Shown here piece by piece: positions 6,186 through 28,451 of a stretch of 64,000 nucleotides of DNA. The notes under the pieces are model-generated. The model did not search any database. It worked only from the letters and a program-made list of their open reading frames with translations, and had not been told where the DNA came from. Location: contig CAJUEO010000003.1 in assembly GCA_910585685.1 (NCBI GenBank), forward strand, positions 45,004 through 109,003, read 5' to 3'. The stretch's first letter is position 1. The number at the start of each line of letters is the position of its first letter. Origin of the DNA: an uncultured Christensenella sp. (GTDB taxonomy: Bacteria > Bacillota > Clostridia > Christensenellales > Borkfalkiaceae). Position numbers and translations under genes: made by a program.

Positions 6186-6211
6186 AAAAAGTCAAATAAT
6201 TAAAAATTCTT

Positions 6212-7845: not shown

Positions 7846-7854
7846 AGTGTAACG

Positions 7855-7889
7855 GTGCCGCGGTTAAATACGCGGCACAATTATTTTTC
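7855..7889 (+). terminator. intrinsic terminator after ppx
   Basis: GTGCCGCG-N8-CGCGGCAC followed by AATTATTTTT. Confidence 0.7.
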
Positions 7890-7918
7890 AATATAATTAC
7901 TTGAAATTGTAAAAGAAT

Positions 7919-8476
7919 ATGAAATACGTTTTAGCAAGTGCGTCACCGAGAAGGCGCGAACTTTTATCGCAAATATTGCCGCGCTTCGAGGTGGTTCCGT
8001 CCGGTGCGGAAGAAAAAGTTAATATTTCGCTGTTTCCCGAGAAAATGGCTTGCGCCCTTGCGGAAGCTAAGTGCGACGACGTGTTTTCCCTCGACGACTC
8101 GAAAACGGTAATAGGCTGCGATACTATAGTTGTGTTCGGCGGTGAAATTTTGGGGAAGCCCAAGGACGCTGCCGAGGCGGAAACAACGCTTAAAATGCTT
8201 TCGGGTAAAACGCATTACGTCATTACGGGCGTGTGCGTGCGAAACAAATATAAAAAATTGATTGATTTTGACAGAACTGAAGTCAAATTCAATATTTTAT
8301 CCGATGAATTTATCAAAAGCTACGTCGAAAGCGGTTCACCGCTTGACAAGGCCGGCAGTTACGGCATTCAGGACGGAGGGTTGGTAAAGGAATATTTCGG
8401 AAGCTATACAAACGTTGTGGGCTTGCCCGTTACGTTGACGAAAAAATTACTTGACGGAGTAAAAATAGACTTATGA
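7919..8476 (+). CDS. maf: Maf-like nucleoside triphosphate pyrophosphatase
   Basis: LASASPRRRELL signature and GKP/AGSYGIQ blocks. Confidence 0.9.
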   Translation: MKYVLASASPRRRELLSQILPRFEVVPSGAEEKVNISLFPEKMACALAEAKCDDVFSLDDSKTVIGCDTIVVFGGEILGKPKDAAEAETTLKMLSGKTHYVITGVCVRNKYKKLIDFDRTEVKFNILSDEFIKSYVESGSPLDKAGSYGIQDGGLVKEYFGSYTNVVGLPVTLTKKLLDGVKIDL

Positions 8477-9489: not shown

Positions 9490-9504
9490 ATAGATTGTAA
9501 GAAT

Positions 9505-11310
9505 ATGGCAAAAAAAAGTAATATTCGTAATTTTTGTATTATAGCGCATATCGACCACGGCAAGTCCACACTTGCCGATCGGCTTATGGAGCGCACAGGG
9601 CAGGTTTCCGAGCGCGATATGGAGGCGCAACTGCTCGACTCGATGGATATCGAACGCGAGCGCGGCATAACTATAAAGCTTACGCCAGTCAGAATGTTTT
9701 ACAAGGCAAAGAACGGAGAGGAGTACGAGTTTAACCTCATCGACACTCCGGGACACGTTGACTTCACATACGAAGTTTCTCGCTCTCTCGCTGCGTGCGA
9801 AGGGGCAATTTTGATTGTCGACGCGTCGCAGGGCGTTGAGGCGCAGACGCTGGCAAACGTCTATCTTGCGCTCGAAAACAACCTTGAAATTTTGCCCGTA
9901 ATAAATAAAATTGACTTGCCGAGCGCGCGTCCCGACGAAATTAAGACGGAAATAGAGGACGTTATCGGGCTGGACGCTTCCGACGCGCCCTTGGTTTCCG
10001 CAAAAGAGGGGCTTAATATCGACGACGTGTTGGAGGCAATTGTTACGCATTTCCCCGCGCCGGACGGAGACGACGGTAAGGAGCTGCAAGCGCTAATCTT
10101 CGACAGTTATTACGACAACTACAAGGGCGTAATTTTGTTTGTCAGGATAAAGGAGGGGTGCGTAAAAAGCGGTGACAGAATTAAAACTTTCCGCTCGGAC
10201 AAGATTTACGACGTTGTGGAAACGGGCGTGTTTGCGCCTAACCTTACCCCTAAAAGCGGACTGTTTGCAGGAGAGGTCGGCTATATAGCCGCTTCTATAA
10301 AATCAATTCAGGACGTGGCGGTGGGTGATACCGTTACCTGCGCCGACGCCCCCTGCGCCGAGCCGCTGCCCGGTTACAAGACCGTACAAAGCGTGGTGTT
10401 CTGCGGCATATACCCCCTTGACGGAAGCCGTTTCAACGACTTAAAGGACGCAATTTTAAAGCTTCAATTAAACGACGCTTCGCTTATTTTTGAACCCGAC
10501 AGCTCGGTTGCGCTCGGGTTCGGTTTTAGGTGCGGCTTTCTGGGGCTTCTGCATATGGAAATTATTCAAGAGCGCATCGAGCGTGAGTTCGGGCTTGAAA
10601 TTATAACCACCGCGCCCTCGGTCAGCTATAAGGTTGTAAAAACCGACGGGGAAGAGGTGTTTATCGACAACCCGTCGCACCTACCTCCGCTTTCCGAAAT
10701 AGAGCATATGGAGGAACCTATCGTAAAAGCCGATATCTATTCTCCGCCCGATTATTTGGGGCAGATAATGGATTTGTGCCGCGAGAAGCGCGGAGTGTTT
10801 TTACAGATGACTTACCTCGATAAAAGCCGCGTAAGGCTGGAATATAACTTGCCGCTCAACGAAATAATTTTTGATTTCTTTGACGCGATAAAGTCGAGAA
10901 CGCGCGGCTATGCAAGCTTCGATTACGAGCTTTTGGGCTATGAGCGCAGTAAGCTTGTAAAGCTTGATATCTTGTTGAACGGGGACGTTTGCGACGCTCT
11001 GTCCATGATAGTTCACGAGGACTCGGCTTACGCCCGAGGCAGAACTCTTTGCGAAAACTTGAAGGAAGCAATTCCCCGTCAGCTTTTCGAGGTGCCCGTG
11101 CAGGCTGCAATCGGCGGCAAAATAATTGCGCGCGAAACGGTTAAAGCCGTAAGAAAGGACGTGCTTGCAAAGTGCTACGGCGGAGATATTACCCGAAAGA
11201 AAAAACTGCTTGAAAAACAGAAAGAGGGCAAAAAGCGTATGCGCCAGATCGGAAACGTAGAGGTGCCGTCGGAAGTGTTTATGCAGATTTTAAAGACCAA
11301 TAAAGATTGA
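9505..11310 (+). CDS. lepA: translation elongation factor 4
   Basis: [14 protein letters not shown]1 motif, [12 protein letters not shown], and the LepA-specific C-terminal domain. Confidence 0.95.
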
Positions 11311-11320
11311 TTTTTTAAAG

Positions 11321-11638
11321 ATGTGTATGTCTTTTTTCGAAAGAGTGTATGCCGAGGTCAGAAAAATACCCAAGGGCAAGGTTGCAACGTACGGGCAGAT
11401 AGCCGCGGCTTCGGGCAGTCCGCGCGCGGCAAGGCAAGTAGGTTGGGCGCTGCACTGCAACCCCTATTTCGGTGACGTTCCCTGTCACAGGGTGGTGTTC
11501 AAGGACGGAAGCCTTACCAAGGGCTTTGCGTTCGGCGGAATAGAAAATCAGGCTGCCATGCTCAAAAGCGAGGGCGTGGAAGTGTCGGCGGATTTTAAAG
11601 TCGATATCAAAAAATTCAGTTATGAGGTGGCAGATTGA
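11321..11638 (+). CDS. MGMT-family (methylated-DNA-protein-cysteine methyltransferase DNA-binding domain) protein
   Basis: VPCHRVV active-site block and IPKGKVATYGQIA helix-turn-helix region. 105 aa single-domain form. Confidence 0.8.
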   Translation: MCMSFFERVYAEVRKIPKGKVATYGQIAAASGSPRAARQVGWALHCNPYFGDVPCHRVVFKDGSLTKGFAFGGIENQAAMLKSEGVEVSADFKVDIKKFSYEVAD

Positions 11639-12741
11639 GCGGAATTTACGTTCATATCCCGTTTTGCAAAGCAAAGTGCAGGTACTGCGATTTTGCTTCG
11701 TTTCCCGACAAAATAGGCTTTGCCGAGAGCTATATGGCTTGCGTGTACCGAGAAATGGCAATGCGCTCGAGCGAGCTTAAAAGCTATAATTTCGATACGC
11801 TGTATATAGGCGGCGGCACGCCGTCGGTAATCGATGAAAACTATATAGTTATGCTCGTTGCAGCGGCGCGCAAGAACTTTAACCTTGCCGAAAATGCGGA
11901 AATAACCATTGAAATAAATCCCGGCACGGTAAGCGCAAAAAAGATAGAAACCTATTTAAAGTGCGGTATAAACCGCTTTTCGGTGGGGCTGCAAACTGCA
12001 ATAGACAGGCAGCTTACAGAAATCGGCAGGATACATAATTTGAAACAGTTCGAGCAATGCGCCAAGCTGTTGAAGGGCAGAAATTTCAGTGTCGACGTAA
12101 TGATAGGGCTTAAAGACCAAAGCATAGCCGACATAGAAAAAACCATTGAAACTGCGGCATATTCCGGGGCCAATCATATTTCTATGTACGCGCTTTGCCC
12201 TGAGGACGGAACTCCTATTTATACCGATTATTTAAACGGGGAGCTGCCAGACAGCGACGAGGTCGCGGCAATGTACGAGTTCGGCGTAAAGAAATTAAGA
12301 CAGCTCGGATTTGAAAGGTACGAGGTTTCCAATTTCTGTAAAAAGGGGTTTGAATCCAAACACAATTTAAACTACTGGAAGCGTGGGGAGTATATAGGCT
12401 TCGGCGTGGCGGCGTCCTCCTGCATAAGCGATACGCGCCTTACAAATACCTTTGATTTGGACGAGTATTTCAAGTGTATTCTGTCAAACCATTTTGCCGT
12501 AAAAGACAGCCAGAAGATAGAGGAAGCAGAGCGCAAGGAAGAATTTATTATGCTCGCTTTGCGCACTTCGAGGGGCTTGAATTTGAATGAATACAAGACT
12601 TTTTTCGAGGTCGATTTTTTGCAGGAATTTGCCGAAAAAATTCAAAAGGTACGGGAATATACCGAGGTTTCGGACGAATTTTTCAAAATAAAAGACGAGT
12701 ATTTGTTTGTACAAAACCAAATTATTACCGAGTTCATTTAA
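11635..12741 (+). CDS. hemW: radical SAM heme chaperone HemW (HemN-like)
   Basis: YVHIPFCKAKCRYCDF CxxxCxxC motif. Conserved lepA-hemW neighbourhood. Confidence 0.9.
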   Translation: MSGIYVHIPFCKAKCRYCDFASFPDKIGFAESYMACVYREMAMRSSELKSYNFDTLYIGGGTPSVIDENYIVMLVAAARKNFNLAENAEITIEINPGTVSAKKIETYLKCGINRFSVGLQTAIDRQLTEIGRIHNLKQFEQCAKLLKGRNFSVDVMIGLKDQSIADIEKTIETAAYSGANHISMYALCPEDGTPIYTDYLNGELPDSDEVAAMYEFGVKKLRQLGFERYEVSNFCKKGFESKHNLNYWKRGEYIGFGVAASSCISDTRLTNTFDLDEYFKCILSNHFAVKDSQKIEEAERKEEFIMLALRTSRGLNLNEYKTFFEVDFLQEFAEKIQKVREYTEVSDEFFKIKDEYLFVQNQIITEFI

Positions 12742-15688: not shown

Positions 15689-17221
15689 ATGCAGCATCAA
15701 AAAGTTCTGGTTTTGGATTTCGGCGGTCAGTACAATCAGCTTATTGCAAGGCGCGTAAGGGAACACGGCGTGTTTTGCGACCTTATGCCCTCCGAAATGA
15801 GCATTGAAAAGATAAAGGAATACAACCCCATAGGAATAATATTTACGGGCGGACCCAACAGCGTTTACGAAGAGGACAGTCCCAAAATCGATAGCGAAAT
15901 TTTCGAGCTCGGTATTCCCGTACTCGGCATTTGTTACGGCTGTCAGCTTGCCGCTCTGCTTTTGGGCGGTACGGTTGAAAGCGCCCAAACTTCGGAATAC
16001 GGCAAGGCGGAGGTTATATGCACTGATTCACCGCTTACAAAGGGTATTCCCGAAAAGTCGGTGTGCTGGATGAGCCATACGGACAGAATAACCGTGCTTC
16101 CCGAAGGATTTAAAAAGATTGCATACAGTGAAAACTGCCCCTTTGCCGCGTTCGGAAACGAGGAGAAAGGCATTTACGGCGTACAGTTCCACCCCGAAGT
16201 AAACCACACGCAGTACGGCGCGCAGTTATTGCATAACTTCCTTTACGAGGTTTGCGGCGCAGTCGGGGATTGGACAATGAAAAACTTCGTCGAGAACCAG
16301 ATACGGGATTTAAAAGTTAAACTCGGTGACAAAAAAGTGCTTTGCGCAATGTCGGGCGGCGTCGACTCTGCCGTTGCCGCCACATTAATTCACAAGGCAA
16401 TAGGGGACAATCTTACCTGCGTTTTCGTCGACCACGGTCTTTTGAGAAAGTACGAGGCTGACGAGGTTATGTCGGTTTTCAAGGACGGGTTGAAGATGAA
16501 CCTTATAAAAGCCGACGCTGGAGAGGTGTTCCTCAAAAAATTAAAGGGCGTTTCTGACCCCGAGCAAAAGCGCAAGATTATCGGAGAAGAGTTTATCCGC
16601 GCGTTCGAGGTAGAGGCAAAGAAGATAGGCAAGGTGGATTTCCTTGTACAGGGCACGATTTATCCCGACGTAATAGAGAGCGGCAAGGGCAAAAGCGCCG
16701 TAATTAAGTCGCACCACAACGTAGGGGGGCTGCCTTCTGTAGTTGACTTTAAAGAGATTGTCGAACCGCTTCGCGACCTTTTCAAGGACGAAGTGAGAAA
16801 GGTGGGCTTTGAACTCGGGCTGCCCAAGTCGGTAGTAATGCGCCAACCCTTCCCCGGGCCCGGGCTTGCCATAAGAATTATGGGAGAAGTTACCGAGGAA
16901 AAGCTTGAAACATTGCGCGACAGTGACTATATACTGCGCGAAGAAATTGCAAAGGCAGGGCTGGACGAACAAATCTGGCAGTACTTTACCGTTATTACCA
17001 ACAGCAAGACGGTCGGCGTAATGGGGGATTTCAGAACGTACGAAAACGTAATTGCAATAAGGGCGGTAACGTCGCTCGACGCAATGACGGCGGATTGGGC
17101 GCGCATACCTTACGACGTTTTGGAAATTATTTCAAACCGCATTGTAAACGAAGTTAAACACGCAAACAGAATAGTGTACGATATAACATCTAAACCTCCC
17201 GCAACAATCGAGTGGGAGTAA
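15689..17221 (+). CDS. guaA: GMP synthase (glutamine-hydrolysing)
   Basis: GATase domain (GICYGCQ), the PP-loop SGGVDS, and the conserved C-terminus TIEWE. Confidence 0.95.
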
Positions 17222-17227
17222 GGTATT

Positions 17228-17267
17228 AAAAAATTGCCGACAGTTTTATAATTGTCGGCAATTTTTT
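17228..17267 (+). terminator. intrinsic terminator after guaA
   Basis: AATTGCCGACA-N9-TGTCGGCAATT followed by a T-run. Confidence 0.8.
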
Positions 17268-17341
17268 ATGTCAATACGACAATAATTATACCTGCAGCGT
17301 TCAAGCGGCTTTTTTTAACCGCTTGCAATTTTTAAAATACT

Positions 17342-19741
17342 GTGATATACTTAGTTTTAATGACTGATTTCGAGGCGTTGAAAAATTTAATAAACTCACA
17401 CAAGCAACCCGATAAGCAGTTCTTTTTAGAGCTTTTGGACAGCGAAAAACAGTTGGTATATGAAAACGAGCATATAGCGGCAGTTATGAAAATGCTGCGT
17501 GTAGTCAGGCTTGGAAGACTTAAAGAAAAGCTTAAAGAAGCGAGAACCGAAAGGGAAAATCTTATCGGTGCGGAGGACTATAACGCCGAAAAGTATAAAA
17601 GAGTGCTCGAGCTCAATGCTTTGATTTCGGATTTAAAGCGGCAGACCGACGAGTTTAAGCCGCTGTTTGAAGAGCCGTATTTTGCGCGTATGGACTTAAC
17701 CGACAATATCGAGGGATACAACAGCTACTATATCGGCAAGCGCGGTGACGAAAAGCTGGAAATTATAGATTGGCGCGCGCCGCTTGCAAGGCGGTATTAT
17801 CAAAAGAGCAGAACCGAGTTTTCTATAAACGAGTATAACTATAAGCTTGTTTTGAGGCGCGCGCTGCGCACTTCTAACGGCAAGGTGCTCGATATGAAAA
17901 ACGAGTATCTTTCGCTGTCGGACTATCTTTCGAAAGACGAAATCGGCGGTCGCGACGAAAAGTTGATTTTCGACCCGTTTTTAAAGGAGATTTTGCGCGG
18001 CAGAAAGGAAAAGCACGAAATTTGCGATATAATCGAAACAATTCAAGAGCAGCAGTTTGAAATTATAACCTTGCCCGAGCGCGACGAGTTTGTGTTGCAG
18101 GGCGTAGCCGGAAGCGGCAAAACTATGATTTTGCTGCACAGGCTTTCGTATATTATGTACAACAACGAGGGGCTGCGCCCTTCCGACGTTCTTGTAATAA
18201 CTCCGTCCGACTCGTTCAACGCGTTTATAGACGAGCTTTCAACCGTGCTGGAACTCGAAAAGGTGAGAACGAGCACGCTCGACAGTTATTTTTTGAATAT
18301 GTTGAAGAGCGTAGGCGCGGACTTAAAAGATAAGTTCGATTTCTCGCTTTCGGTAAACGAGGAATACCTCAAATACATCTATTCTCCGGCTTTTTCCAAG
18401 GACGTCGATAAAAAGCTTTCAAAGGTGTACGACGGGGTTTACGGGCTGTTTGCTTCGGAGGACTGCATAGAAGTATCAAAAGAAGTGGAGAGCATTCTGG
18501 CAAGCCAGATTAAAAGCTACGAAAAAATCAAAAACACTTCCCTGCGCGTTCGGCGCTGCGTGCTTGGAGAAATAAAGGAAAAGAAGGACGGCGGACTGTA
18601 CTATACCAAACAGTTCAGGTATCTGTTCAACTGCGTGCTTGACGTACGCGAATTTTTGTCGCTTGTGGATAACGACGAAAGAATGAAGGGATACGCCTAC
18701 TTTTACAGACAGCTTCTGTCTTTCTATAAATCAATCAAGTATATTAGGCGGTACTCGTATAAAATATGCCTTACAGCCGTCGAGGATTTGAATAAGCTTA
18801 AAGTCACGGTCGAGAAGGAGATTGTCGATTTAAGGAGGTATAAGTACAAGTCGGGAGATATCGAAATAATGACTTATGCCGACCAGATTGAGGCGCGTGA
18901 AAGGCTGCTTAGCGAAATTGGGGCGGTAATATGCCTTATCGAAGGCATTTCAAGCGGTTTTTCAACCGTACACGATTTTGTCGACGTCTTGCGCGGAGAC
19001 AGCTATCTTACGGCAATAGGCAAATGCGAAAACACCCTCGACATACTTAGATTTTTCTATCGGGAAACGGTTAAACGTGCGAAAGTAAGGCATAGTATGG
19101 GGTTAACTAAACTTTTAAAGTGCGACGCGTTTGCGCTTTGCCACATTTTAGTCAAGCTCGGGTTCAACCTTTCCCCCAAATTTTCCTATATTTTCGTGGA
19201 CGAAGCGCAGGACGTTTCAAAGGCGGAATACGAGGTTATAAGATATGTGAACGACCGCGCCGTGTTGAATATATTCGGTGACTTGAAGCAAAATATCACG
19301 CATTTCCGCGGAATTAAGGATTGGAGCGAGCTAGGTTTAAAGACCTATAATTTAAATTTGAACTACCGCAACACCAACGAAATAGTCGAGTATGTTTCTA
19401 AAAATCTCGGCATTGAAATGAAGTCGATAGGCTTTGACGGAACTGCTGTCGAGAGAATACCGGCGCGTTCCTGCGCGAGCTGGTTCAGCGATAAAAACGG
19501 TCTTAAAGCGGTCATATGTACGGGGCAATCGATTGAAAGGTATATAAAAAAGAGCTATAACGTACTTTCCAAGACGGGCAAAATATCAAAAAATAAGATA
19601 AATATTATGACCGTGTATGAAAGCAAGGGGCTTGAATTTACCGCAGTTGCCGTAGTTGACGAGGATATGACCGACAATGAAAAATATATTGCCTATACGC
19701 GCGCTTTAAAAGAGCTTGCAATTATAGAAAACGGCAATTAG
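17342..19741 (+). CDS. helD: HelD-like SF1 (UvrD-type) helicase, an RNA-polymerase-associated helicase IV family member
   Basis: HelD N-terminal signature PYFARMDL...YYIGKRG...IIDWRAPLARRYY. Walker A GVAGSGKT, then FVDEAQD, YESKGLEF and YTRALKEL. The start could instead be the ATG at 17360. Confidence 0.75.
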   Translation: MIYLVLMTDFEALKNLINSHKQPDKQFFLELLDSEKQLVYENEHIAAVMKMLRVVRLGRLKEKLKEARTERENLIGAEDYNAEKYKRVLELNALISDLKRQTDEFKPLFEEPYFARMDLTDNIEGYNSYYIGKRGDEKLEIIDWRAPLARRYYQKSRTEFSINEYNYKLVLRRALRTSNGKVLDMKNEYLSLSDYLSKDEIGGRDEKLIFDPFLKEILRGRKEKHEICDIIETIQEQQFEIITLPERDEFVLQGVAGSGKTMILLHRLSYIMYNNEGLRPSDVLVITPSDSFNAFIDELSTVLELEKVRTSTLDSYFLNMLKSVGADLKDKFDFSLSVNEEYLKYIYSPAFSKDVDKKLSKVYDGVYGLFASEDCIEVSKEVESILASQIKSYEKIKNTSLRVRRCVLGEIKEKKDGGLYYTKQFRYLFNCVLDVREFLSLVDNDERMKGYAYFYRQLLSFYKSIKYIRRYSYKICLTAVEDLNKLKVTVEKEIVDLRRYKYKSGDIEIMTYADQIEARERLLSEIGAVICLIEGISSGFSTVHDFVDVLRGDSYLTAIGKCENTLDILRFFYRETVKRAKVRHSMGLTKLLKCDAFALCHILVKLGFNLSPKFSYIFVDEAQDVSKAEYEVIRYVNDRAVLNIFGDLKQNITHFRGIKDWSELGLKTYNLNLNYRNTNEIVEYVSKNLGIEMKSIGFDGTAVERIPARSCASWFSDKNGLKAVICTGQSIERYIKKSYNVLSKTGKISKNKINIMTVYESKGLEFTAVAVVDEDMTDNEKYIAYTRALKELAIIENGN

Positions 19742-19780
19742 TCAATAACGTAATAGTGCAATAAAGCTTAGGAGAAAGAT

Positions 19781-22700
19781 ATGGCAGGCAAAACAAAGAA
19801 GAATTTTGACGCAATAGAAATCGACGGCGAACTTTTAAACGCTGTGAGCTATGCGACGTATTACTCGCGCCAACAACTTTTTAATTCGTTCAAAATTTTT
19901 AACCGCGCCGTCGAGAGCGTAAATAACGTTACGGTAAGCGTAACGGGTTCTACGGCTCTCATTTTGCCGTGCGAAATGCGCATCGAAGAGATACCTCACG
20001 AAAGCAGCGTCGAGGCAATACCTCAAAACATTCTCAATCCCAAGTACCTTGCCGAAATAGACGCGCCCGAAACCTGCCGTATTCAGGTTATTTTGCTGTG
20101 CGGTGCCGACGTCGTCTGCTCGCTCGAAGCCGAGGTGGTGGCGCTTCCCATTAGCTGTTGGAGCGGTCTTTCGGGCAACGCCGAAATGCTTGCCTCTTTC
20201 GTGCGACCCAAGCTTGCCGACTGCCAAAAAATTATGGCTGAAGCCGGTTTGCAGCTTAGGACCTGGGGCTATTCCTCCGAGTTTTCGGGCTATTCGGGAA
20301 CGGATAAAAACGGCGTGCGCAACGCTGTTGCTTCGGTATTTTCCGCCGTGCGCAGGCTGAATATAGAGCGCGTCGGAGAGTGCGATTTGTCGGGCGTCGT
20401 CGATACGGGTGACGTTACAAAGGTAATAGAAAACAAGAGCGCTACGTTTATCGAGCTGGCTCTTTTTACAGCAAGCTGTCTTGAAGCCGCAAAGCTTAAT
20501 CCTGTCTTGTTGCTCGGTAAATCGGGCATATGTGTGGGTGTATGGCTGTATGAAAGCTGTTTTTCCTCCTCCGTGCACGACGATATGCTGCTTATCGACA
20601 AGTATGTTTCCGAGGGCGTAAACAATTTAACCATATTTGATTGCGACGATTTGTTCGCGCACAAGAACGCGAGCTACACAACCAGCGAGTCGCACGCACG
20701 TGCAAATCTGCAAAAGGACTGCTACGAACTTTGCCTTGACATAAAGCGTTGCAGAATAGGCGGAATTTACCCCATGCCACTGAAAGTCAAAACGGCTTCG
20801 GGCTACGAGCTTTTGGCAGACAGGCAAATTTCATTCGACGAAAAGCCTCAGCAGGTGTTTGACGCGACAAAGTACGACTATGACAGGGGCGCTTCCAAGG
20901 AAAACAATTGGCAGCGCAGACTGCTGGATTTATCGCTTAAAAACAATTTGTTGAATTTCAGATACACGCGCGACTGTCTGCATATGATAAGCGCGGATTT
21001 ATCGGCGTTTTGCAGCCTTATAGACGAAAAAAGAAAATTTACCGTCTTGCCCAACACAACGGCTATACCCGACGCGGTGTACTTCGGCGGCTGTAAGACA
21101 GTTGCAAATATGCAAGAGCTTACCGTAATAGAAATGAAGAGCGGCAAAATGCGCTGTATGTCCTCGCAGGATACTTTATCCGAGGTTGCTTCTACGCTTA
21201 TAAGAAAGTCGCGTGCCGCCGCAGAAGAAGCAGGCGTAAACTCGCTGTATCTTGCCTGCGGCTTTTTGAAATGGCGCGCGGAGGACGACAAGGAAGAAAG
21301 GTATGCGCCAATCGCGCTCTTGCCCGTGACTTTGAAAAGGGCAAAGGCGCAGGGGGTTACGCTCGAAGTAGACGAGGATTATGAAGTAAACACCACGCTT
21401 TTGGAGTTTTTAAAGCAGGACTTCGGCATCGATATACGCGGTCTGGACGGCAAGGGACTAAGTCCCAAGGAGATAATAGCCGTATTCCGCGCAAAGACGG
21501 CAAATATGCGCGGCTGGGTGGTTTACGAGGATATTTATCTTGCGCAATTCACGTTCGCGCGCTATGCAATGTGGGCGGACGTTAAAAATAACGTTAAAGT
21601 ATTTGCAAAGAATAAGCTTGTTTCAAGCCTTATGTCAAATTCAAACCAAATGTCGGGTAACAGGCTCGAGGGCGTAAGCGAGGACGAGGGAGACCCTTGC
21701 GGAATATTGACTCCTCTCGCTTGCGACAGCACGCAGTACGCGGCGGTAGCCGAGTCGGAAAAGGGCACTACTTTCGTTCTGCACGGGCCTCCGGGCACGG
21801 GCAAAAGCCAAACTATTACAAACATAATCGCAAACGCGGTTGCCAAGGGCAAAAGAGTGCTGTTTGTAGCCGAAAAGCAGGCGGCGCTGCAAGTTGTTAA
21901 AAAGAGACTGTCCGACATAGGAATAGGGGAATTTTGCCTTGAACTGCACTCGGGCAAGTCTACGGACAAGTCCGAAATTGTGAGAAATATCGAAGCGACG
22001 CTTTCGCTTGCAAGCGAGGGAGATGACGAAGCGTTTAAAAATTGCGGAGAAAAAATAAGCGAAACGCGCTCGGCGCTGCTTTCTCCGCTCGACGCACTGC
22101 ACAAAAAGCGCAGGCTTGGCGTTTCTGTTTACGAGGGAATTGTCTACTATCTGCAAAACAAAAACGCGCCCGACCTTTTGAATATCGAAACTACCTTCTA
22201 CGACTCGCTTACAAAGCAAAAATTCGAGGACTACGAAAATATGCTTATTTCCGCTCAGGCGGCGGCAAAGGAATGCGGCGGAGTCTACCGTTCTCCGTTT
22301 TCGGGCATTAAGCTCACCGATTGCGACGAAAAAACCAAAACGTCGGTTTTGTGCTCGTCGGAAGTTGTGCTTGCGGAGTTAAAGCATTTTAAAAACTACC
22401 TCGGGCTGTTTCTTGAAACGTTCAATCAAAAGGTTTCCAAATTCACTTATAAAAAGCTATATAACCTTATAGAGATTGCAAAAATTTTAAAAAGCGACGA
22501 TTTAAACGCATTTTTCGAGTGTGAAGAAGAGGCGCTGTATAAGTTCTATAACGCAAATTTGAGGTACGACAGCGAGGTAAAGCATTGGTTAAACAATTTT
22601 AAGGTTTTGCCCGATATCTCCAAATTTTCAACTGAAATAGAGAGCGAAATAGATAATTGGGGAGAAAATTACCGTTCTTCTCGCACGCTGTTGCAGGTGA

Positions 22701-25402
22701 TAAAGCGCATAAACCGCTGCGGTTCGCAGCCCGTAAAACAGAGCGACGAGCTGGAATGGATAAAGCGCGCGTACGAAATTGAAAAGGCAAGGGAGCGCAT
22801 TCTTAAAAATACGAATTTAAGCTCGGCTTTCGTCGGGTTCGGCGGCATAAACGATAAAAAGCGCGAAGAATTTTTAAAACCCTTGTACGGTTTACACAAG
22901 CTGTGCGCCGAAACGTTTATGGACTATAATTCCGACGCGTTCAACAGTATATGCGTGTCCTCGTCGGGCGGAACGCTTAAACCGCTTATAAACGGGCTTA
23001 TTTCGGCGGCAAAAGGCTTTAACGAAAGCGTAAATTATTTTCTTAACACTGTCAGGGCAGACAAATCGGACTGCGACGATAGGGATTTATTCGAGTACTA
23101 CACGGAAAAATGCACCGCGCTTATCGACAATATCGATATGTTGCCGTCCTGGTGTATCTACAAGTCGGCGGCAAAGAAAATGGCGGCTTGCGGACTTTCG
23201 TTCATGACCGACGCTATGGAGAGCGGCAAAATTTCAGGCAAGCAGATTTTGGCTTCGTTTAGAAAGAACGTTTACCGCAATTTTATTCAGACAAATATAC
23301 CTGCCGACGAGTGCCTCAGCGCGTTCTCGGCAAGCATTCTCGACGAAAACGCCTCCAACTTTGCAAGGCTTTTGGAGGAGTTTACAACTCTCACGCGCGA
23401 GAAAATAAGGCGCGATCTGGTGTCGAGGTTGCCGTCTATGGAAACGGAAGGACCGCTCGCTTTGGAAATTATGACCTTCCAAAGGCAGATAAAGGGCAAC
23501 TTGCGCAAGCTGAATTTGCGCACGCTGTTTACCGATATACCCGAACTTATGAAGGTGGTTGCGCCCTGTTTGCTTATGAGCCCGGGCACGGTATCGCAAT
23601 ATCTGCCGCCCGACCCCGAGCTGTTCGATATAGTAATTTTCGACGAAGCCTCGCAAATTCCCACCTGCGAAGCCGTGCCGTCGCTTGCAAGGGCAAAGAG
23701 CGCGATTATTGTGGGCGATCCCAAACAGATGCCACCGACTTCCTTCTTTATGGGCTCCGGCTCTGACGACGACCACCCCGAAACGGAGGACTTGGAAAGC
23801 GTGTTGGAGGACTGCCTTGCGCTCGGTATTCCCGAAAAGCATTTGAGCTGGCACTACCGCTCGAAGCACGAAAGCCTTATTGCCTTTTCAAACAGTATGT
23901 ACTATTCGAGCAAGCTTTGCACGTTCCCCTCTCCCGACGCGCTCGACAGCAAGGTTACGCTGCGGTATCTTGAAAACGGCGTCTACGAGCGCGGACTGTC
24001 CAAATGCAACAGGCAGGAGGCGGAGGCGCTTGTTGCCGAAGTAGTAAGGCGGTTGAAGGACGAAAGGCTCAAAGCTTCGAGCATAGGCGTAGTCACTTTC
24101 AGTACTCCCCAGCAGGATTACGTCGAAAAGCTGTTGCAAAAGGAGATAGTCAGGCACGGGCTCGAGGAGGCGGCTTACGAGCGCGAAGAACCTCTGTTTG
24201 TAAAGAACCTCGAAAACGTTCAGGGTGACGAGCGCGACGTAATACTCTTTTCGGTGTGCTACGGCCCCGATAAAATGGGCAGACTTTCGCTCAATTTCGG
24301 CCCGTTAAACCAATTCGGAGGTTGGCGCAGGCTGAACGTCGCGGTATCGCGAGCGAGGGAGGAGATGATAGTGTTCTCGTCGATGAGATATTCAATGATC
24401 GATTCGTCGCGCACGACCTCGCGCGGTGTTGCAGGGCTTAAAGCCTTTTTGGAATTTGCCGAAAAGGGCAGAACGAGTATCTCGGTCAAGAGCGGAGATA
24501 TAATTTTGAACAAGCAGGGCATAGGCAAGTTTGTTGCGGAAGAGCTTTCTAATTACGGCTATGACTGTCGCTGCGACGTAGGCGTTTCCGACTTTAAAAT
24601 TGACGTCGGCGTACTCGACCCCAAAAATAAGCACAATTTCATACTCGGAATACTGTGCGACGGCACCAAGCAGTTCTCCGTAAAGGATCGCTCGGTTATG
24701 CAGGTGCAGACTTTGAAGCGCAACAATTGGAACGTTTACAGGCTGTACGCAATCAACTTTTTCAACAATCCCAAGCGCGAAATTAAAAAGATAAAGGAAT
24801 TTCTGGACAAGCTGTGCGACGACGGCAAGCCGTCCGCAATAAGCTTTAAAAAGCCCTATCGCGCGGCTAAGTTGGAGAGCAAAACGCAGACGCCCGACTA
24901 CATTCTTTGCAGCGACAACGACAACGAGATTTGCAAGGTAATAAAGGCGGTGGTTTGCGCAGAAGAGCCTATTTCAACGCAATTTCTGATGAAGAGAACG
25001 CTTGCCGCGTACGGCATCTCCAAGTACGGAATAAAGCTTGAAAGCAAGTTGCGTTCGCTTATAGACAAGTGCGCGTTCGAAAGCTGTGAGATGACAGGTA
25101 ACGTGTATCATTTCAGGGCGGATAAATATTCGCTGTTTGACAGATACCGCGTGGAGGTGGATACCGCACTGCGTTCGGCGGACGTCGACTATACGCCGTA
25201 CGACGTAATTTCTTTGATAAAGGGCATACTTTTGAACAAGGTGAGTATGTATGCCGACGAGCTTGTGCCTATGGTATTGCGCGAGTTGAAGGTTCCCCGT
25301 TCGAGCGACAAACTCAACTCGTTTGTATATTCCTGTATTGACGAGGGGGCGCGCCGCGGTCTGTTTATACGCAGTGTGTCCGATAAAATTTCCCTTTCGT
25401 AA
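19781..25402 (+). CDS. 1873-aa multidomain protein: unknown N-terminal domain, DUF4011-like region, Upf1/DNA2-like SF1B helicase, Vsr/PD-(D/E)xK-like fold, DUF3320-like tail
   Basis: RRLLDLSLKNNLLNFR and LYLACGFLKW (DUF4011-type). Helicase motifs GPPGTGKS (21785-21808), FDEASQ (23639-23656), VGDPKQMPPT, HYRSKHESLIAF, QGDERDV and RRLNVAVSRAR. The nuclease-fold block is GVSDFKIDVGV...GILCDG. Strong RBS AGGAGA. Confidence 0.8.
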   Translation: MAGKTKKNFDAIEIDGELLNAVSYATYYSRQQLFNSFKIFNRAVESVNNVTVSVTGSTALILPCEMRIEEIPHESSVEAIPQNILNPKYLAEIDAPETCRIQVILLCGADVVCSLEAEVVALPISCWSGLSGNAEMLASFVRPKLADCQKIMAEAGLQLRTWGYSSEFSGYSGTDKNGVRNAVASVFSAVRRLNIERVGECDLSGVVDTGDVTKVIENKSATFIELALFTASCLEAAKLNPVLLLGKSGICVGVWLYESCFSSSVHDDMLLIDKYVSEGVNNLTIFDCDDLFAHKNASYTTSESHARANLQKDCYELCLDIKRCRIGGIYPMPLKVKTASGYELLADRQISFDEKPQQVFDATKYDYDRGASKENNWQRRLLDLSLKNNLLNFRYTRDCLHMISADLSAFCSLIDEKRKFTVLPNTTAIPDAVYFGGCKTVANMQELTVIEMKSGKMRCMSSQDTLSEVASTLIRKSRAAAEEAGVNSLYLACGFLKWRAEDDKEERYAPIALLPVTLKRAKAQGVTLEVDEDYEVNTTLLEFLKQDFGIDIRGLDGKGLSPKEIIAVFRAKTANMRGWVVYEDIYLAQFTFARYAMWADVKNNVKVFAKNKLVSSLMSNSNQMSGNRLEGVSEDEGDPCGILTPLACDSTQYAAVAESEKGTTFVLHGPPGTGKSQTITNIIANAVAKGKRVLFVAEKQAALQVVKKRLSDIGIGEFCLELHSGKSTDKSEIVRNIEATLSLASEGDDEAFKNCGEKISETRSALLSPLDALHKKRRLGVSVYEGIVYYLQNKNAPDLLNIETTFYDSLTKQKFEDYENMLISAQAAAKECGGVYRSPFSGIKLTDCDEKTKTSVLCSSEVVLAELKHFKNYLGLFLETFNQKVSKFTYKKLYNLIEIAKILKSDDLNAFFECEEEALYKFYNANLRYDSEVKHWLNNFKVLPDISKFSTEIESEIDNWGENYRSSRTLLQVIKRINRCGSQPVKQSDELEWIKRAYEIEKARERILKNTNLSSAFVGFGGINDKKREEFLKPLYGLHKLCAETFMDYNSDAFNSICVSSSGGTLKPLINGLISAAKGFNESVNYFLNTVRADKSDCDDRDLFEYYTEKCTALIDNIDMLPSWCIYKSAAKKMAACGLSFMTDAMESGKISGKQILASFRKNVYRNFIQTNIPADECLSAFSASILDENASNFARLLEEFTTLTREKIRRDLVSRLPSMETEGPLALEIMTFQRQIKGNLRKLNLRTLFTDIPELMKVVAPCLLMSPGTVSQYLPPDPELFDIVIFDEASQIPTCEAVPSLARAKSAIIVGDPKQMPPTSFFMGSGSDDDHPETEDLESVLEDCLALGIPEKHLSWHYRSKHESLIAFSNSMYYSSKLCTFPSPDALDSKVTLRYLENGVYERGLSKCNRQEAEALVAEVVRRLKDERLKASSIGVVTFSTPQQDYVEKLLQKEIVRHGLEEAAYEREEPLFVKNLENVQGDERDVILFSVCYGPDKMGRLSLNFGPLNQFGGWRRLNVAVSRAREEMIVFSSMRYSMIDSSRTTSRGVAGLKAFLEFAEKGRTSISVKSGDIILNKQGIGKFVAEELSNYGYDCRCDVGVSDFKIDVGVLDPKNKHNFILGILCDGTKQFSVKDRSVMQVQTLKRNNWNVYRLYAINFFNNPKREIKKIKEFLDKLCDDGKPSAISFKKPYRAAKLESKTQTPDYILCSDNDNEICKVIKAVVCAEEPISTQFLMKRTLAAYGISKYGIKLESKLRSLIDKCAFESCEMTGNVYHFRADKYSLFDRYRVEVDTALRSADVDYTPYDVISLIKGILLNKVSMYADELVPMVLRELKVPRSSDKLNSFVYSCIDEGARRGLFIRSVSDKISLS

Positions 25403-25414: not shown

Positions 25415-25445
25415 AAGCAGGCGCGGTTTTAAACCGCGCCTGCTT
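25415..25445. terminator. bidirectional intrinsic terminator (giant helicase gene / dapB)
   Basis: AAGCAGGCGCGGTTTTAAACCGCGCCTGCTT, a perfect 12-bp stem. Confidence 0.85.
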
Positions 25446-27122: not shown

Positions 27123-28202
27123 TTAATCGAAATAGCCCTTAGCCGCCAGAAGTTCGGCAAGTAGTACGGCGCCGCCTGCCGCGCCGCGCAAGGTATTGTG
27201 CGAAAAACCTATAAATTTATAGTCGAAGAGGTTGTCTTCCCTCAATCTTCCGCAAAGCACAGCCATTCCGTTTTCAAGGTTTCTGTCAAGCTTGGGCTGA
27301 GGTCTGTCGTCCTCGTCGAAATAGTGAATAAACTGTTTGGGTGCGGAGGGCAGGCAGAGCTTCTGCGGTTCACCTGCAAACTCGCGCCAAGCCTGTATAA
27401 TTTGTTGCTTTGCGGGCTTTTGGGTAAATTTAACAAAGCAAGCCGCCGTGTGTCCGTCGGATACGGGCACTCGCAGGCACTGCGCCGTAATTTTAGGGCA
27501 GTCGGCGCATACAATTTTGCCGTTTTCGACCTTGCCCCAAATTTTCAAAGGCTCTTTTTCGCTTTTTTCCTCTTCTCCGCCGATATAGGGGATTACGTTG
27601 TCGCAAATTTCCGGCATGGTTTCAAAGGTCTTGCCCGCGCCCGATATGGCTTGATAGGTCGTTACCGCCACACTCTCTATGCCGAATTTTTTCAAGGGGT
27701 GCAACAGGGGAACGTACGATTGCAGCGAACAGTTGCTCTTTACCGCGATAAATCCGCGCTTTGTGCCAAGCCTTTTTCTCTGCAAGGGGATAACCTCGAG
27801 GTGTTCGGGGTTGACCTCGGGAATAATCATAGGCACGTCGTCCGTAAACCTGTGCGCCGAGTTATTTGAAACAATGGGGCACTCGAGCTTTGCATAGGCG
27901 TATTCAAGCTCGCGTATTTCGTCCTTTTTCATATTTACAGCGCAAAAGCAAAAATCGACTTTTTTTGCTATTGTCTTTATGTCTGCGGTTGCGTCCAAAA
28001 CTTGCATATCTGCAAATTTCTCGGGCATGGGCGCCGACATGTGCCAGCGCCTTACCGCGTCTTTATAGCTCTTGTTTGCGGAATTTTTGGATGCCGCAAG
28101 TACGGTTACTTCAAATAAGGGGTGGTTTTCCAGCAACAGCAAAAATCTTTGCCCTACCATTCCCGTGGCGCCGATAACGCCGACTTTGTATCTTTTTTGC
28201 AT
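27123..28202 (-). CDS. asd: aspartate-semialdehyde dehydrogenase
   Basis: [14 protein letters not shown] Rossmann motif and SNCSLQ active-site region. The ATG at 28202 is used; the ORF-track start at 28337 runs through the riboswitch leader. Confidence 0.9.
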
Positions 28203-28235
28203 ATTAACTCCATAGATTGATATAGTACGTTTTAA

Positions 28236-28440
28236 AAAAATAAAAGACAGTACGCCGTACTGCCGCAAAAAGCAATTAGCGCAACACATAAGTGACAGTC
28301 GCAAAGGTATTAGCCCGTGCGCCCGACGGAATTTCAAGGTAAAAAACCGCCTCGGCGGAGGTACCCTTTTGCCGAAACTTAAAGTCGGAATTTCCTTTAA
28401 ATTCCTGTTTTCGGTTACTTTTGTCCGTCCGCTCCTCTAA
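28236..28440 (-). ncRNA. probable lysine riboswitch (L-box) with a terminator expression platform, leader of asd-dapA-dapB
   Basis: The minus-strand RNA reads AGAGGAGC...AGUAA...AAAAGGGUACCUCCGCCGAGG...ACUGUCAC. It resembles the L-box blocks AGAGGNGC, GAGUA, AAAGGG, GCCGAAG and CUGUCA. It is followed by the hairpin CAGUACG-GC-GUACUG plus a U-run. Confidence 0.7.
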
Positions 28441-28451
28441 TTTGCAAGGTT

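What the first reader, a model, noticed from the sequence alone, without database searches (positions are those of the whole stretch)
17342..25402. Terminator-bracketed two-helicase cassette: a HelD-like helicase plus a 1873-aa DUF4011/Upf1-like helicase/nuclease-fold/DUF3320 protein
**Seen in the sequence**
- Two co-directional SF1 helicase genes lie 39 nt apart with no hairpin between them.
- The pair sits between strong intrinsic terminators: 17228-17267 after guaA, and 25415-25445 shared with the convergent dapB. It therefore looks like an insertion between two core biosynthetic operons.
- A second hairpin (CAAGCGG-N10-CCGCTTG, 17302-17325) lies just upstream of gene 1.
- Gene 1 carries the HelD signature (PYFARMDL, YYIGKRG, IIDWRAPLARRYY) and UvrD-type motifs.
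- Gene 2 carries DUF4011-type blocks (RRLLDLSLKNNLLNFR, LYLACGFLKW).
- Gene 2 also carries SF1B motifs (GPPGTGKS, FDEASQ, VGDPKQMPPT, HYRSKHESLIAF, QGDERDV, RRLNVAVSRAR).
- The helicase core is interrupted by a roughly 500-aa helical insert and is followed by a Vsr/PD-(D/E)xK-like block and a DUF3320-like tail.

**Established knowledge, from memory**
- Single-gene helicase-plus-nuclease proteins act as anti-phage systems, for example Nhi and type II Mokosh.
- A 'helicase + Vsr endonuclease' gene named Hhe was described by Gao et al. 2020. I cannot verify that this ORF belongs to that family.

**Inference**
- The giant protein is a candidate nucleic-acid-sensing defence or surveillance enzyme.
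- I do not know of a described operonic pairing of such a protein with an RNAP-associated HelD-type helicase. That pairing could mean a two-component system.
Basis: partly seen in the sequence, partly recalled or inferred. Interest (0 to 1): 0.72.

Follow-up and report, generated by a model that had tools for sequence, protein, structure and literature searches.

The report
Core-genome HelD plus ProA-like giant helicase
The two helicase genes are real, but they are an anciently inherited, strongly conserved gene pair of a gut Clostridia order (an RNA-polymerase-recycling HelD and a relative of the anti-phage proteins ProA and Hhe that has lost two catalytic residues), not a recently inserted defence cassette.

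Summary
Two co-directional SF1 helicase genes (17360-19741 and 19781-25402) lie 39 nt apart between strong terminators, and all quoted motifs are present.

- **Gene 1** is a class-I-type HelD. It has an invariant DWRAP motif, and its best PDB matches are HelD-RNA polymerase structures.
- **Gene 2** belongs to the ProA/PDC-S37/Hhe anti-phage helicase-nuclease superfamily. It scores just under NCBIfam's ProA cut-off (1464 vs 1500 bits).

The "insertion" reading fails. The pair is syntenic in species-representative genomes of Christensenellales-type MAGs. It diverges in step with dapB (r=0.95), has dN/dS of 0.025-0.048, and has no mobile-element borders.

The pairing is old and is the best-kept adjacency at the locus (47/63). 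It is not obligate:
- 12 of 72 informative loci keep gene 2 without gene 1.
- One locus keeps gene 1 without gene 2.
- 18 of 53 spacers carry a terminator-like hairpin.
- No examined bona fide ProA or Hhe locus has a HelD neighbour.

New point: bona fide ProA carries a transglutaminase-like N-domain with invariant Cys and His. This clade has lost both (0/80), while its helicase motifs are 80/80 invariant.

Verdict: a new variant of a known kind, of moderate interest.

The parts
17227..17268 (.). Strong palindromic terminator hairpin after guaA, with an A-run 5' and a T-run 3'
   Evidence: dG -24.2 kcal/mol, z -9.1, 0/200 shuffles as good.: inverted repeat I3, 19-nt arms, 95% complementary.
17299..17329 (+). 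Weak second hairpin (CAAGCGG-N10-CCGCTTG) overlapping the -35 of the promoter-like site. Probably not significant on its own.
   Evidence: dG -9.8, z -2.2, 10/200 shuffles fold as well.
17323..17351 (+). Promoter-like site: TTGCAA, 17-nt spacer, TG-extended TATACT. It ends 9 nt before ATG 17360, so the transcript may be leaderless or have a very short leader.
   Evidence: consensus scan only.: no Shine-Dalgarno sequence before 17360.
17360..19741 (+). Gene 1: class-I-type HelD (RNA polymerase recycling motor family), 793 aa. Features: N-terminal antiparallel helices aa 28-98, DWRAP aa 137-141, Walker A GVAGSGKT aa 248-255, helical insert aa 334-580, Walker B VDEAQD aa 613-618.
   Evidence: top four NCBIfam hits are HelD/HelR, all below cut-off.: best PDB sequences are 6wvk_H (E 3e-23) and 6yxu_H (7e-17).: top three Foldseek hits are HelD structures.: DWRAP and ATPase motifs invariant in 57/57 orthologues.: AF2 model (poor overall, pLDDT 60).
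19742..19780 (+). 39-nt unstructured spacer with AGGAG (19770-19774) 6 nt before the gene 2 ATG. The two genes are probably co-transcribed in this genome.
   Evidence: spacers below about 150 nt in relatives also lack hairpins.
19781..25402 (+). Gene 2: 1873-aa ProA-like SF1B (Upf1-like) helicase with a nuclease-fold domain, just below the threshold of the ProA family
   Evidence: PDC-S37 954 bits, Hhe 447.: ProA 1464.2 bits (cut-off 1500), Hhe 662 (cut-off 2000).: helicase core resembles IGHMBP2, Sen1 and Upf1.
19808..20155 (+). Gene 2 aa 10-125: all-beta N-terminal domain (beta-sandwich in the model)
   Evidence: AF2 model of aa 1-640, pLDDT 79.9, blocks 86-92 in this stretch.: Foldseek hits to beta-sandwich domains at E about 0.01.
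20156..20815 (+). Gene 2 aa 126-345: degenerate transglutaminase-like (papain-fold) domain. The Cys position is F223 and the His position is G249.
   Evidence: bona fide ProA has invariant Cys and His here.: 20/30 ProA N-domains hit Pfam Transglut_core (best E 7e-4).: 0/80 orthologues have Cys or His.: the window N-terminus gives no Pfam hit.
20918..21412 (+). Gene 2 aa 380-544: DUF4011
   Evidence: 110.1 bits, full-length match 1-158/158.
21728..21994 (+). Gene 2 aa 650-738: helicase domain 1A, N-terminal part, with Walker A GPPGTGKS (aa 669-676)
   Evidence: K675 invariant in 80/80.
22001..23590 (+). Gene 2 aa 741-1270: insert of about 530 aa within domain 1A. Shared with ProA and Hhe; fold not determined.
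   Evidence: 66% median identity among orthologues.
23591..24382 (+). Gene 2 aa 1271-1534: rest of domain 1A plus 2A (DEASQ, GDPKQMPPT, HYRSKHESL, QGDERD, RRLNVAVSRAR)
   Evidence: all checked motif residues invariant in 80/80.
24530..24805 (+). Gene 2 aa 1584-1675: MTES_1575 / Vsr-like PD-(D/E)xK-fold domain. The motif is LCDG where Hhe and some ProA have ECDGxxYH. The domain is as conserved as the helicase core.
   Evidence: 60.3 bits..: 83.5% median identity, 38% invariant columns.
24821..25399 (+). Gene 2 aa 1681-1873: C-terminal tail, with a weak DUF3320 signal. It is not matched by the last roughly 190 positions of the ProA model.
   Evidence: DUF3320 16.5 bits (below 25).: the ProA match ends at 1707/1903.: PDC-S37 covers up to aa 1858.
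25415..25445 (.). Bidirectional intrinsic terminator shared by gene 2 and the convergent asd-dapA-dapB operon
   Evidence: 14-bp stem, 9 GC pairs, T-runs on both strands.: dG -29.2 / -26.1, z -7.4 / -6.5.

Best explanation
The locus is a vertically inherited chromosomal gene pair of Christensenellales-type gut Clostridia.

Gene 1 is a class-I HelD. HelD is an SF1-like ATPase that inserts a helical arm into the secondary channel of RNA polymerase and releases stalled polymerase from DNA.

Gene 2 is a stand-alone, single-polypeptide ProA-like enzyme. It combines:
- an ATP-driven SF1B (Upf1/Sen1-type) translocase with a large insert;
- a DUF4011 module;
- a highly conserved Vsr/MTES_1575 nuclease-fold domain;
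- an N-terminal transglutaminase-like domain that is catalytically dead in this clade.

In this genome the two genes are probably transcribed together. Transcription would start at a promoter around 17323-17351 and end at the bidirectional terminator at 25415-25445.

I infer that gene 2 works on its own, as its plasmid-borne ProA and Hhe relatives do. It would be a nucleic-acid surveillance motor that loads on aberrant or foreign nucleic acid, translocates, and acts through its C-terminal nuclease-fold domain. I infer that the adjacency to helD is mainly old synteny, at most a loose functional association, and not an obligate two-protein system.

Shown here: gene identities, synteny, strength of selection, residue states.
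Inferred: the activities, the substrate, and whether the present role is defence or genome maintenance.
For: Identity
- establish what the two proteins are.
- HelD hallmarks are met. PMC8655204 gives DWR[A/S]P and an antiparallel helical N-arm as the family's conserved features. DWRAP is 57/57 invariant, and helices span aa 28-98 in the model.

Vertical inheritance
- At least 549 loci in GTDB species-representative genomes encode a relative. The best 80 are all Christensenellales-type MAGs at 59-99% identity.
- Identity to the window tracks dapB (r=0.95) and gene 1 (r=0.97). Median identities: gene 2 68%, dapB 69%, dapA 71%.
- dN/dS against the conspecific L009: gene 2 0.025, gene 1 0.048, guaA 0.035, asd 0.034, dapB 0.115.
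- There are no flanking repeats and no GC anomaly.
- Neighbours are always housekeeping genes: guaBA, dapB, comEC-holA, nusA-infB, pnp, ligA, recG.

Pair is old
- Gene 1 lies within 3 kb upstream of gene 2 in 47/63 loci. By comparison guaA-gene 1 holds in 25/48, gene 2-dapB in 24/59 and gene 2-comEC in 23/59.
- The pairing persists, with one gene between, at 50% identity (L094).

Pair is separable
- 12 of 72 informative loci have gene 2 with no gene 1 within at least 8.5 kb. These fall in about five clades.
- L104 keeps gene 1 with gene 2 missing from its syntenic slot.
- 18 of 53 spacers hold a terminator-like hairpin.
- Four ProA plasmid loci and one Hhe locus have no UvrD/HelD neighbour.

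Motor is intact
- All checked helicase motif residues are 80/80 invariant.
- The nuclease-fold domain shows 83.5% identity among orthologues.
Against: - No activity was measured for either protein.
- The anti-phage label for ProA rests only on the NCBIfam model name. I found no paper on ProA or PDC-S37.
- Gene 2 fails the ProA cut-off and lacks the Cys/His of the ProA N-domain, so it may not work like ProA.
- It lacks the Glu and His of ECDGxxYH. A Glu-to-Ala change in the nuclease domain abolishes Hhe defence (10.1101/2022.06.16.496414), although I could not map that residue onto this motif.
- Core-like conservation is unusual for a defence gene.
- The gene 1-gene 2 adjacency is kept better than any neighbouring adjacency. 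That fits selection for linkage as well as it fits plain inertia.
- Sampling started from genomes that have gene 2, so how universal it is in the lineage is unknown.
Confidence: 0.55

Rival explanations
1. Functional two-protein module. HelD and the ProA-like helicase cooperate. For example, HelD-engaged or stalled transcription complexes (R-loops, phage-hijacked polymerase, transcription-replication collisions) are recognised or processed by the Sen1/Upf1-like motor. Linkage would be kept by selection for co-expression.
For: - The adjacency is the most conserved one in the neighbourhood (47/63, against 41-52% for flanking adjacencies).
- It survives replacement of both flanks and reaches back to about 50% identity.
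- In this genome there is a 39-nt unstructured spacer with a ribosome-binding site.
- The gene 2 helicase core resembles Sen1, Upf1 and IGHMBP2.
- Both proteins would act on obstacles on nucleic acid.
Against: - The genes are separable in both directions.
- 34% of adjacent pairs have a terminator-like hairpin between them.
- Gene 1-gene 2 co-divergence (r=0.97) is no stronger than dapB-gene 2 (r=0.95).
- Deeper members of the subfamily that lacks the N-domain Cys and His sit in housekeeping contexts without HelD.
- There is no interaction evidence.
Confidence: 0.2
2. Exaptation. The clade's ProA-like protein is no longer an immune protein. It would be a domesticated housekeeping helicase for genome maintenance or RNA/DNA quality control, which would explain its core-gene behaviour and the dead transglutaminase-like domain.
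For: - dN/dS is 0.025 over 1873 codons.
- Divergence is core-like and the context is always housekeeping.
- 0/80 orthologues retain the Cys or His that are invariant in ProA.
- The match to the ProA model is truncated at the C-terminus.
- Precedent for a species-wide core DUF4011 gene exists in P. aeruginosa (PMC10250203).
Against: - The protein still scores 1464 bits on ProA and 954 bits on PDC-S37.
- The nuclease-fold domain is very conserved, as expected if an effector is retained.
- Core, vertically inherited defence genes do exist.
- No housekeeping phenotype is known for any family member.
- Some scattered members of the ProA-type class (30-33% identity, mostly outside this clade) also lack Cys/His.
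Confidence: 0.2
3. One reading: a recently acquired defence cassette inserted between the guaBA and dapB operons.
For: - Strong terminators bracket the pair.
- Gene 2 hits defence-family models.
- Small variable genes occupy the slots next to the pair in relatives.
Against: - Synteny holds across at least 80 species representatives, with divergence in step with dapB.
- There are no repeats, integrase or tRNA at the borders.
- GC content is like that of the flanks.
- dN/dS is like that of core genes.
- The variable material lies beside the pair, not in it.
Confidence: 0.03

Closest known systems
ProA, 'anti-phage protein ProA' (NCBIfam NF058533), which is also matched by the PADLOC candidate model PDC-S37
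   Same: - Same overall architecture and length class: N-terminal domain, DUF4011, split SF1B helicase with a large insert, MTES_1575 nuclease fold, C-terminal tail.
- Score of 1464 bits on the ProA model over aa 24-1679, and 954 bits on PDC-S37.
- Helicase motifs are identical.
   Different: - Below the curated cut-off (1500). Bona fide members score about 2190-2220 bits over the full length.
- The last roughly 190 model positions are unmatched.
- The Cys and His of the transglutaminase-like N-domain, invariant in ProA, are absent in 80/80 clade members.
- The gene is chromosomal, syntenic and core-like. The ProA genes examined are stand-alone genes on plasmids among transposases and toxin-antitoxin genes.
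- A HelD neighbour is found only here.
Hhe (Gao et al. 2020; NCBIfam NF042953; PADLOC PDLC02194)
   Same: - Single polypeptide with DUF4011, an SF1B helicase with an insert, and a Vsr-like nuclease fold.
- The C-terminal two-thirds align (662 and 447 bits).
   Different: - Far below the cut-off (662 vs 2000 bits).
- Hhe has no N-terminal beta-sandwich or transglutaminase-like region; its DUF4011 starts at aa 26.
- Hhe has ECDGATYH where this protein has LCDG followed by a 3-residue deletion.
- Hhe is plasmid- or island-borne and flanked by IS elements.
HelD class I (B. subtilis HelD, PDB 6WVK; NCBIfam NF041464)
   Same: - DWRAP motif, N-terminal antiparallel helices, UvrD-type ATPase motifs, and a helical insert in domain 1A.
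- Best PDB matches by both sequence and fold are HelD.
   Different: - Only 113 bits against the 419-bit equivalog cut-off, so it is a divergent Clostridia-type member.
- RNA polymerase binding is untested.
- Linkage to a DUF4011 gene is not mentioned in the HelD survey I read (PMC8655204).
Sen1 / Upf1 / IGHMBP2 (eukaryotic SF1B helicases)
   Same: Helicase core motifs. These are the best solved-structure matches for the gene 2 motor.
   Different: Only the roughly 350-aa core aligns (E 1e-7 to 1e-10). The accessory domains are unrelated, and there is no evidence for the same substrates.
P. aeruginosa core DUF4011 gene flanking defence hotspot cDHS1 (PMC10250203)
   Same: A large DUF4011 gene present in every isolate, next to a slot that holds variable genes. 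Here, small variable genes sit between guaA and gene 1 and between gene 2 and dapB in relatives.
   Different: I did not compare the sequences. The conservation reported there is within one species; here it spans an order-level clade.

Membership tests
HelD (RNA polymerase recycling motor), class I | Absolutely conserved DWR motif in the N-terminal domain, usually DWR[A/S]P with no inserted residue (PMC8655204) | tested here: met
   DWRAP at aa 137-141, invariant in 57/57 orthologues.
HelD (RNA polymerase recycling motor), class I | HelD-specific N-terminal long antiparallel alpha-helical arm | tested here: met
   The AF2 model has helices at aa 28-69 and 76-98 (pLDDT about 50-82; whole model poor at 60.4). 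HMM alignment to the HelD N-domain covers 6wvk_H residues 88-300.
HelD (RNA polymerase recycling motor), class I | UvrD-type SF1 ATPase motifs with a helical arm inserted in domain 1A | tested here: met
   Walker A and B, YRNT and ESKGLEF are invariant. A confident helical insert spans aa 334-580. The top three Foldseek hits are HelD structures.
HelD (RNA polymerase recycling motor), class I | NCBIfam HelD_BACSU equivalog cut-off (419 bits) | tested here: not met
   113.3 bits. It is a divergent family member, not an equivalog of B. subtilis HelD.
HelD (RNA polymerase recycling motor), class I | Binds RNA polymerase and releases it from nucleic acid | not testable with these tools
   Needs pull-down, cryo-EM or a release assay.
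ProA (NCBIfam NF058533) | Score at or above the curated cut-off (1500 bits) with a full-length match | tested here: not met
   1464.2 bits, with the match ending at model position 1707/1903. Bona fide members score 2190-2222 bits over 1-1903.
ProA (NCBIfam NF058533) | Architecture: N-domain, DUF4011, split SF1B helicase, MTES_1575 fold | tested here: met
ProA (NCBIfam NF058533) | Transglutaminase-like N-domain with conserved Cys and His. This feature was derived here, not taken from the literature. | tested here: not met
   Cys and His are invariant in 30 ProA-type N-domains. 20/30 hit Pfam Transglut_core. The window has F223 and G249, and 0/80 orthologues have Cys or His.
ProA (NCBIfam NF058533) | Confers phage resistance | not testable with these tools
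   Only the model name says so. No paper was found.
Hhe (NCBIfam NF042953) | Score at or above 2000 bits with a full-length match | tested here: not met
   661.9 bits, covering only aa 1066-1684.
Hhe (NCBIfam NF042953) | Vsr-like nuclease motif ECDGxxYH | tested here: not met
   K. pneumoniae Hhe has IECDGATYH. The window has ILCDGT followed by a 3-residue gap. L/I occupies the Glu position in 80/80 orthologues. Most ProA-type proteins also lack the Glu.
PDC-S37 (PADLOC candidate) | Near full-length match to model PDLC05009 | tested here: met
   954 bits, aa 375-1858 matching model 11-1534/1550. Bona fide ProA scores 1177-1252 bits. No curated cut-off is shown.
Mobile defence island or cassette | Patchy distribution, mobile-element borders, atypical composition | tested here: not met
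Gabija (GajB-like UvrD helicase) for gene 1 | GajB-type helicase encoded next to the GajA OLD-family nuclease | tested here: not met
   The GajB models match only aa 600-700 (at most 69 bits, a generic UvrD motif). No third gene lies between guaA and dapB.

The most novel reading that the evidence does not exclude
An anti-phage-type ProA helicase was fixed in the chromosome of an ancestor of Christensenellales-type Clostridia and lost the catalytic Cys and His of its transglutaminase-like domain. It has since been maintained next to helD as part of a transcription-linked surveillance module. In this reading the Sen1/Upf1-like motor clears or cleaves nucleic acids associated with stalled RNA polymerase that HelD recycles. 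That would be an immune protein exapted to genome maintenance.
Probability: 0.15. Interest if true: 0.75.

Novelty: new variant of a known kind. Interest (0 to 1): 0.5.

Why it matters
ProA, Hhe and PDC-S37-type giant helicase-nucleases are widespread; about 4,400 clusters at 50% identity match at E <= 1e-30. I found no study of how they work.

This clade offers a natural experiment. The motor and the nuclease fold are under very strong purifying selection, while the N-terminal Cys/His pair is gone. The gene also behaves like a core gene beside the RNA-polymerase recycler HelD.

If the linkage is functional, it would tie a defence-type helicase to transcription-complex clearance. If it is not, the locus is still a clear case of a defence-family gene that became a stable, vertically inherited part of a gut lineage's core genome. 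That bears on how far 'defence system' annotations from HMM hits can be trusted.

Tried and rejected
**Literature.** Five searches for ProA or PDC-S37 found nothing relevant. The anti-phage status of ProA therefore rests on the model name.

**Mapping Hhe E1731A.** I tried to map the mutation (10.1101/2022.06.16.496414) onto the ECDG Glu. In the K. pneumoniae Hhe I could retrieve, that Glu is E1719, and E1742 is also nearby. The equivalence is plausible but unproven.

**'Nuclease-dead' argument.** I rejected this as a clade-specific claim. Most ProA-type representatives also lack the Glu, and the domain is as conserved as the helicase core.

**AF2 of gene 1.** With 13 close orthologues the model was poor (pLDDT 60), and TM-scores to HelD were only about 0.2. 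I used it only for secondary-structure layout and for the ranking of hits.

**Foldseek of gene 2 aa 1-640.** No hit reached E <= 1e-3. Transglutaminases appear in the top ten, but the aligned region may be the beta-sandwich.

**Profile of ProA N-domains against PDB sequences.** No hit.

**The search of protein representatives.** The tool refuses proteins over 1200 aa, so aa 1-1200 was used instead.

**Mobile-element borders.** The search found only chance repeats.

**Not possible.**


Full report
**1. Observation**

The region holds two co-directional ORFs, 17342(GTG)/17360(ATG)-19741 and 19781-25402. Orthologues begin at MxDF, so the first gene most likely starts at ATG 17360 and encodes 793 aa.

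The 39-nt spacer is unstructured (dG -2.8 kcal/mol, z +1.3). It carries AGGAG at 19770-19774.

The hairpins at 17227-17268 (dG -24.2, z -9.1) and 25415-25445 (dG -29.2 and -26.1 on the two strands) are strong. The second upstream hairpin is weak (z -2.2) and overlaps the -35 of a promoter-like site at 17323-17351.

The flanks are guaB-guaA upstream and a convergent asd-dapA-dapB operon downstream. That operon sits behind a lysine riboswitch at 28269-28447. The description is therefore confirmed.

**2. Gene 1 is a HelD**

- The top four NCBIfam hits are HelD/HelR models, all below their cut-offs (HelD_BACSU 113 vs 419 bits).
- The best solved-structure sequences are B. subtilis HelD (6wvk_H, E 3e-23) and M. 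smegmatis HelD (6yxu_H, 7e-17).
- An AF2 model built from 13 close orthologues is poor overall (pLDDT 60). It still shows an N-terminal helical hairpin (aa 28-98) and a confident helical insert (aa 334-580). Its three best Foldseek PDB matches are HelD structures.
- A published survey gives an absolutely conserved DWR motif, usually DWR[A/S]P, and an antiparallel helical N-arm as the features conserved in all HelD proteins (PMC8655204). Gene 1 has DWRAP at aa 137-141. That motif and the ATPase motifs are invariant in 57/57 orthologues.
- PADLOC GajB hits touch only a generic UvrD stretch.

**3. Gene 2 is a sub-threshold sister of ProA**

Pfam finds DUF4011, AAA_11, AAA_12 and MTES_1575. DUF3320 is sub-threshold. 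Other model scores are:

| Model | Bits | Cut-off | Region matched |
|---|---|---|---|
| PADLOC PDC-S37 | 954 | none shown | near full length from aa 375 |
| PADLOC Hhe | 447 | none shown | about aa 1109-1677 |
| NCBIfam 'anti-phage protein ProA' | 1464.2 | 1500 | aa 24-1679, ends at model 1707/1903 |
| NCBIfam Hhe | 662 | 2000 | aa 1066-1684 |

Bona fide ProA proteins from Bacteroides, Klebsiella and Rhizobium, plus representative P0269, score about 2190-2220 bits over the full length. Another member of the window's wider subfamily (P0244, 48% identical) scores 1461 bits.

The family is large. There are 4,429 50%-identity clusters at E <= 1e-30 for aa 1-1200.

**4. What distinguishes this clade**

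In an alignment with 115 full-length representatives, most proteins at 33% identity or less share three motifs in the N-terminal region: G[TN]C[LI]D, GHAF.G.WL and VE[TC]T.

In 30 such N-domains the Cys and His are invariant. Twenty of the 30 hit Pfam Transglut_core and 14 of 30 hit the transglutaminase-like DUF553. Each hit is below cut-off on its own, but they are consistent.

An AF2 model of aa 1-640 (pLDDT 79.9) places the Cys-equivalent at the N-terminus of a helix and the His- and Asp-equivalents on the following strands, after an N-terminal beta-sandwich. The Foldseek result is ambiguous.

All representatives at 35% identity or more to the window, and 80/80 Christensenellales-type orthologues, lack both Cys and His. 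The window has F223 and G249. Every checked helicase motif residue is 80/80 invariant.

The nuclease-fold motif is LCDG where Hhe and some ProA have ECDGxxYH. Most ProA-type proteins also lack that Glu, and the domain is as conserved as the helicase core, at 83.5% median identity. I therefore draw no conclusion about nuclease activity.

**5. Not an insertion**

A scan of species-representative genomes found at least 549 loci that encode a relative. The best 80 are all Christensenellales-type MAGs at 59-99% identity: Christensenella/Christensenellaceae, Ca. Coproplasma, Ca. Borkfalkiaceae and Ca. Caccalectryoclostridium. L009 (uncultured Christensenellaceae bacterium MGBC143123) is conspecific with the window.

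Identity to the window correlates with that of dapB (r=0.95). Median identities are similar: gene 2 68%, gene 1 65%, dapB 69%, dapA 71%.

dN/dS against L009:

| Gene | dN/dS |
|---|---|
| guaB | 0.012 |
| gene 2 | 0.025 |
| asd | 0.034 |
| guaA | 0.035 |
| gene 1 | 0.048 |
| dapB | 0.115 |
| dapA | 0.161 |

There is no tRNA, integrase or flanking repeat, and no compositional anomaly.

In relatives the variable material lies beside the pair. Examples are NUDIX, MatE, an HTH pair with DUF6809, a pyrophosphatase, or five extra genes. Either flank can be replaced. Downstream of gene 2, dapB occurs in 24/59 loci, comEC-holA in 23/59 and other genes in 12/59.

**6. The pairing**

Gene 1 lies within 3 kb upstream of gene 2 in 47/63 loci. 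That is better kept than guaA-gene 1 (25/48) or gene 2-dapB (24/59). The pairing recurs, with one gene between, in a clade only 50% identical (L094).

It is nevertheless separable.
- Twelve of 72 informative loci have no gene 1 within at least 8.5 kb. These fall in about five clades. Gene 2 then follows ABC-transporter, ligA, pnp, lgt or recG genes.
- L093, L096 and L105 (40-51% identical) also lack it.
- L104 keeps gene 1, but a Wzy gene occupies the slot where gene 2 sits in L057, L079 and L060.
- Eighteen of 53 adjacent pairs have a terminator-like hairpin plus T-run in the spacer.
- None of four ProA plasmid loci, nor the Hhe locus, has a UvrD/HelD neighbour.

**7. Interpretation**

The best-supported reading (confidence 0.55) is a stand-alone ProA-like surveillance helicase fixed in the core genome, lying beside, and here co-transcribed with, the lineage's HelD.

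Three rivals remain:
- a genuine functional module linking RNA-polymerase recycling with the Sen1/Upf1-like motor (0.2);
- exaptation of the protein to a housekeeping role (0.2);
- a recently inserted defence cassette (0.03), which the data contradict.

What each gene is, how it is inherited and which residues it keeps are shown. Activities, substrate and biological role are inferred.

**8. Limits**

- I found no primary literature for ProA or PDC-S37.
- Sampling started from genomes that carry gene 2.
- I could not test whether helD is kept elsewhere in genomes where the pair is split.

Noticed in passing
window 28269-28447 (-): A lysine riboswitch (Rfam RF00168, 71.7 bits) lies ahead of the asd-dapA-dapB operon. 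The 404-aa TTG ORF listed for asd (27123-28337) overlaps it. The real start is probably downstream, giving about 359 aa as called in L006 and L007.
   Followed up: partly
window 17323-17360: The promoter-like site with a TG-extended -10 ends only 9 nt before the conserved ATG of gene 1, and no Shine-Dalgarno sequence is visible. The helD transcript may be leaderless.
   Followed up: no
window 15689-17221 and loci L001-L088: Relatives fall into two classes of guaA at the same position. One is about 83-88% identical (510 aa) and the other about 63-65% (513 aa), while the adjacent guaB stays at 84-94%. This suggests replacement of guaA by a divergent copy in some lineages.
   Followed up: no
window 51000-54000: A low-GC stretch (0.35-0.37, against about 0.46 for the window) with high GC skew covers the ORFs at 51364-53597. 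This may be horizontally acquired material.
   Followed up: no
L103 10482-16100: In one JGI metagenome contig the gene 2 orthologue is split into two ORFs (802 + 1052 aa). Sister contigs L101 and L102 have it intact (1872 aa). The cause is a frameshift or pseudogene, or an assembly error.
   Followed up: no
L089 (NZ_OY725931.1, Bacteroides finegoldii 'plasmid 29'): The record is labelled a plasmid but carries rpsA, glutamine synthetase III and bglX, so it looks like a chromosomal fragment. Its bona fide ProA gene is followed immediately by a convergent 'reverse transcriptase family protein'.
   Followed up: no
L001-L004, L098-L103: slots between guaA and gene 1 and between gene 2 and dapB: These two intergenic slots hold different small genes in different species: NUDIX, MatE, DUF898, a pyrophosphatase, an HTH pair with DUF6809, or five genes including ASCH, GNAT and SpoU. 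This recalls the P. aeruginosa hotspot cDHS1, which is flanked by a core DUF4011 gene (PMC10250203).
   Followed up: partly
window 41251-44397 and 48217-51360 (+): Two ORFs of about 1047 aa each lie 4 kb apart on the same strand. They were not examined.
   Followed up: no
L092 (Rhizobium beringeri pRlX1) 1-12700: The bona fide ProA gene lies directly after a 'DNA repair exonuclease' plus 'YhaN family' (SbcCD/Lamassu-like) pair and a ThiF plus DUF6527 pair. This looks like a defence-island context.
   Followed up: no
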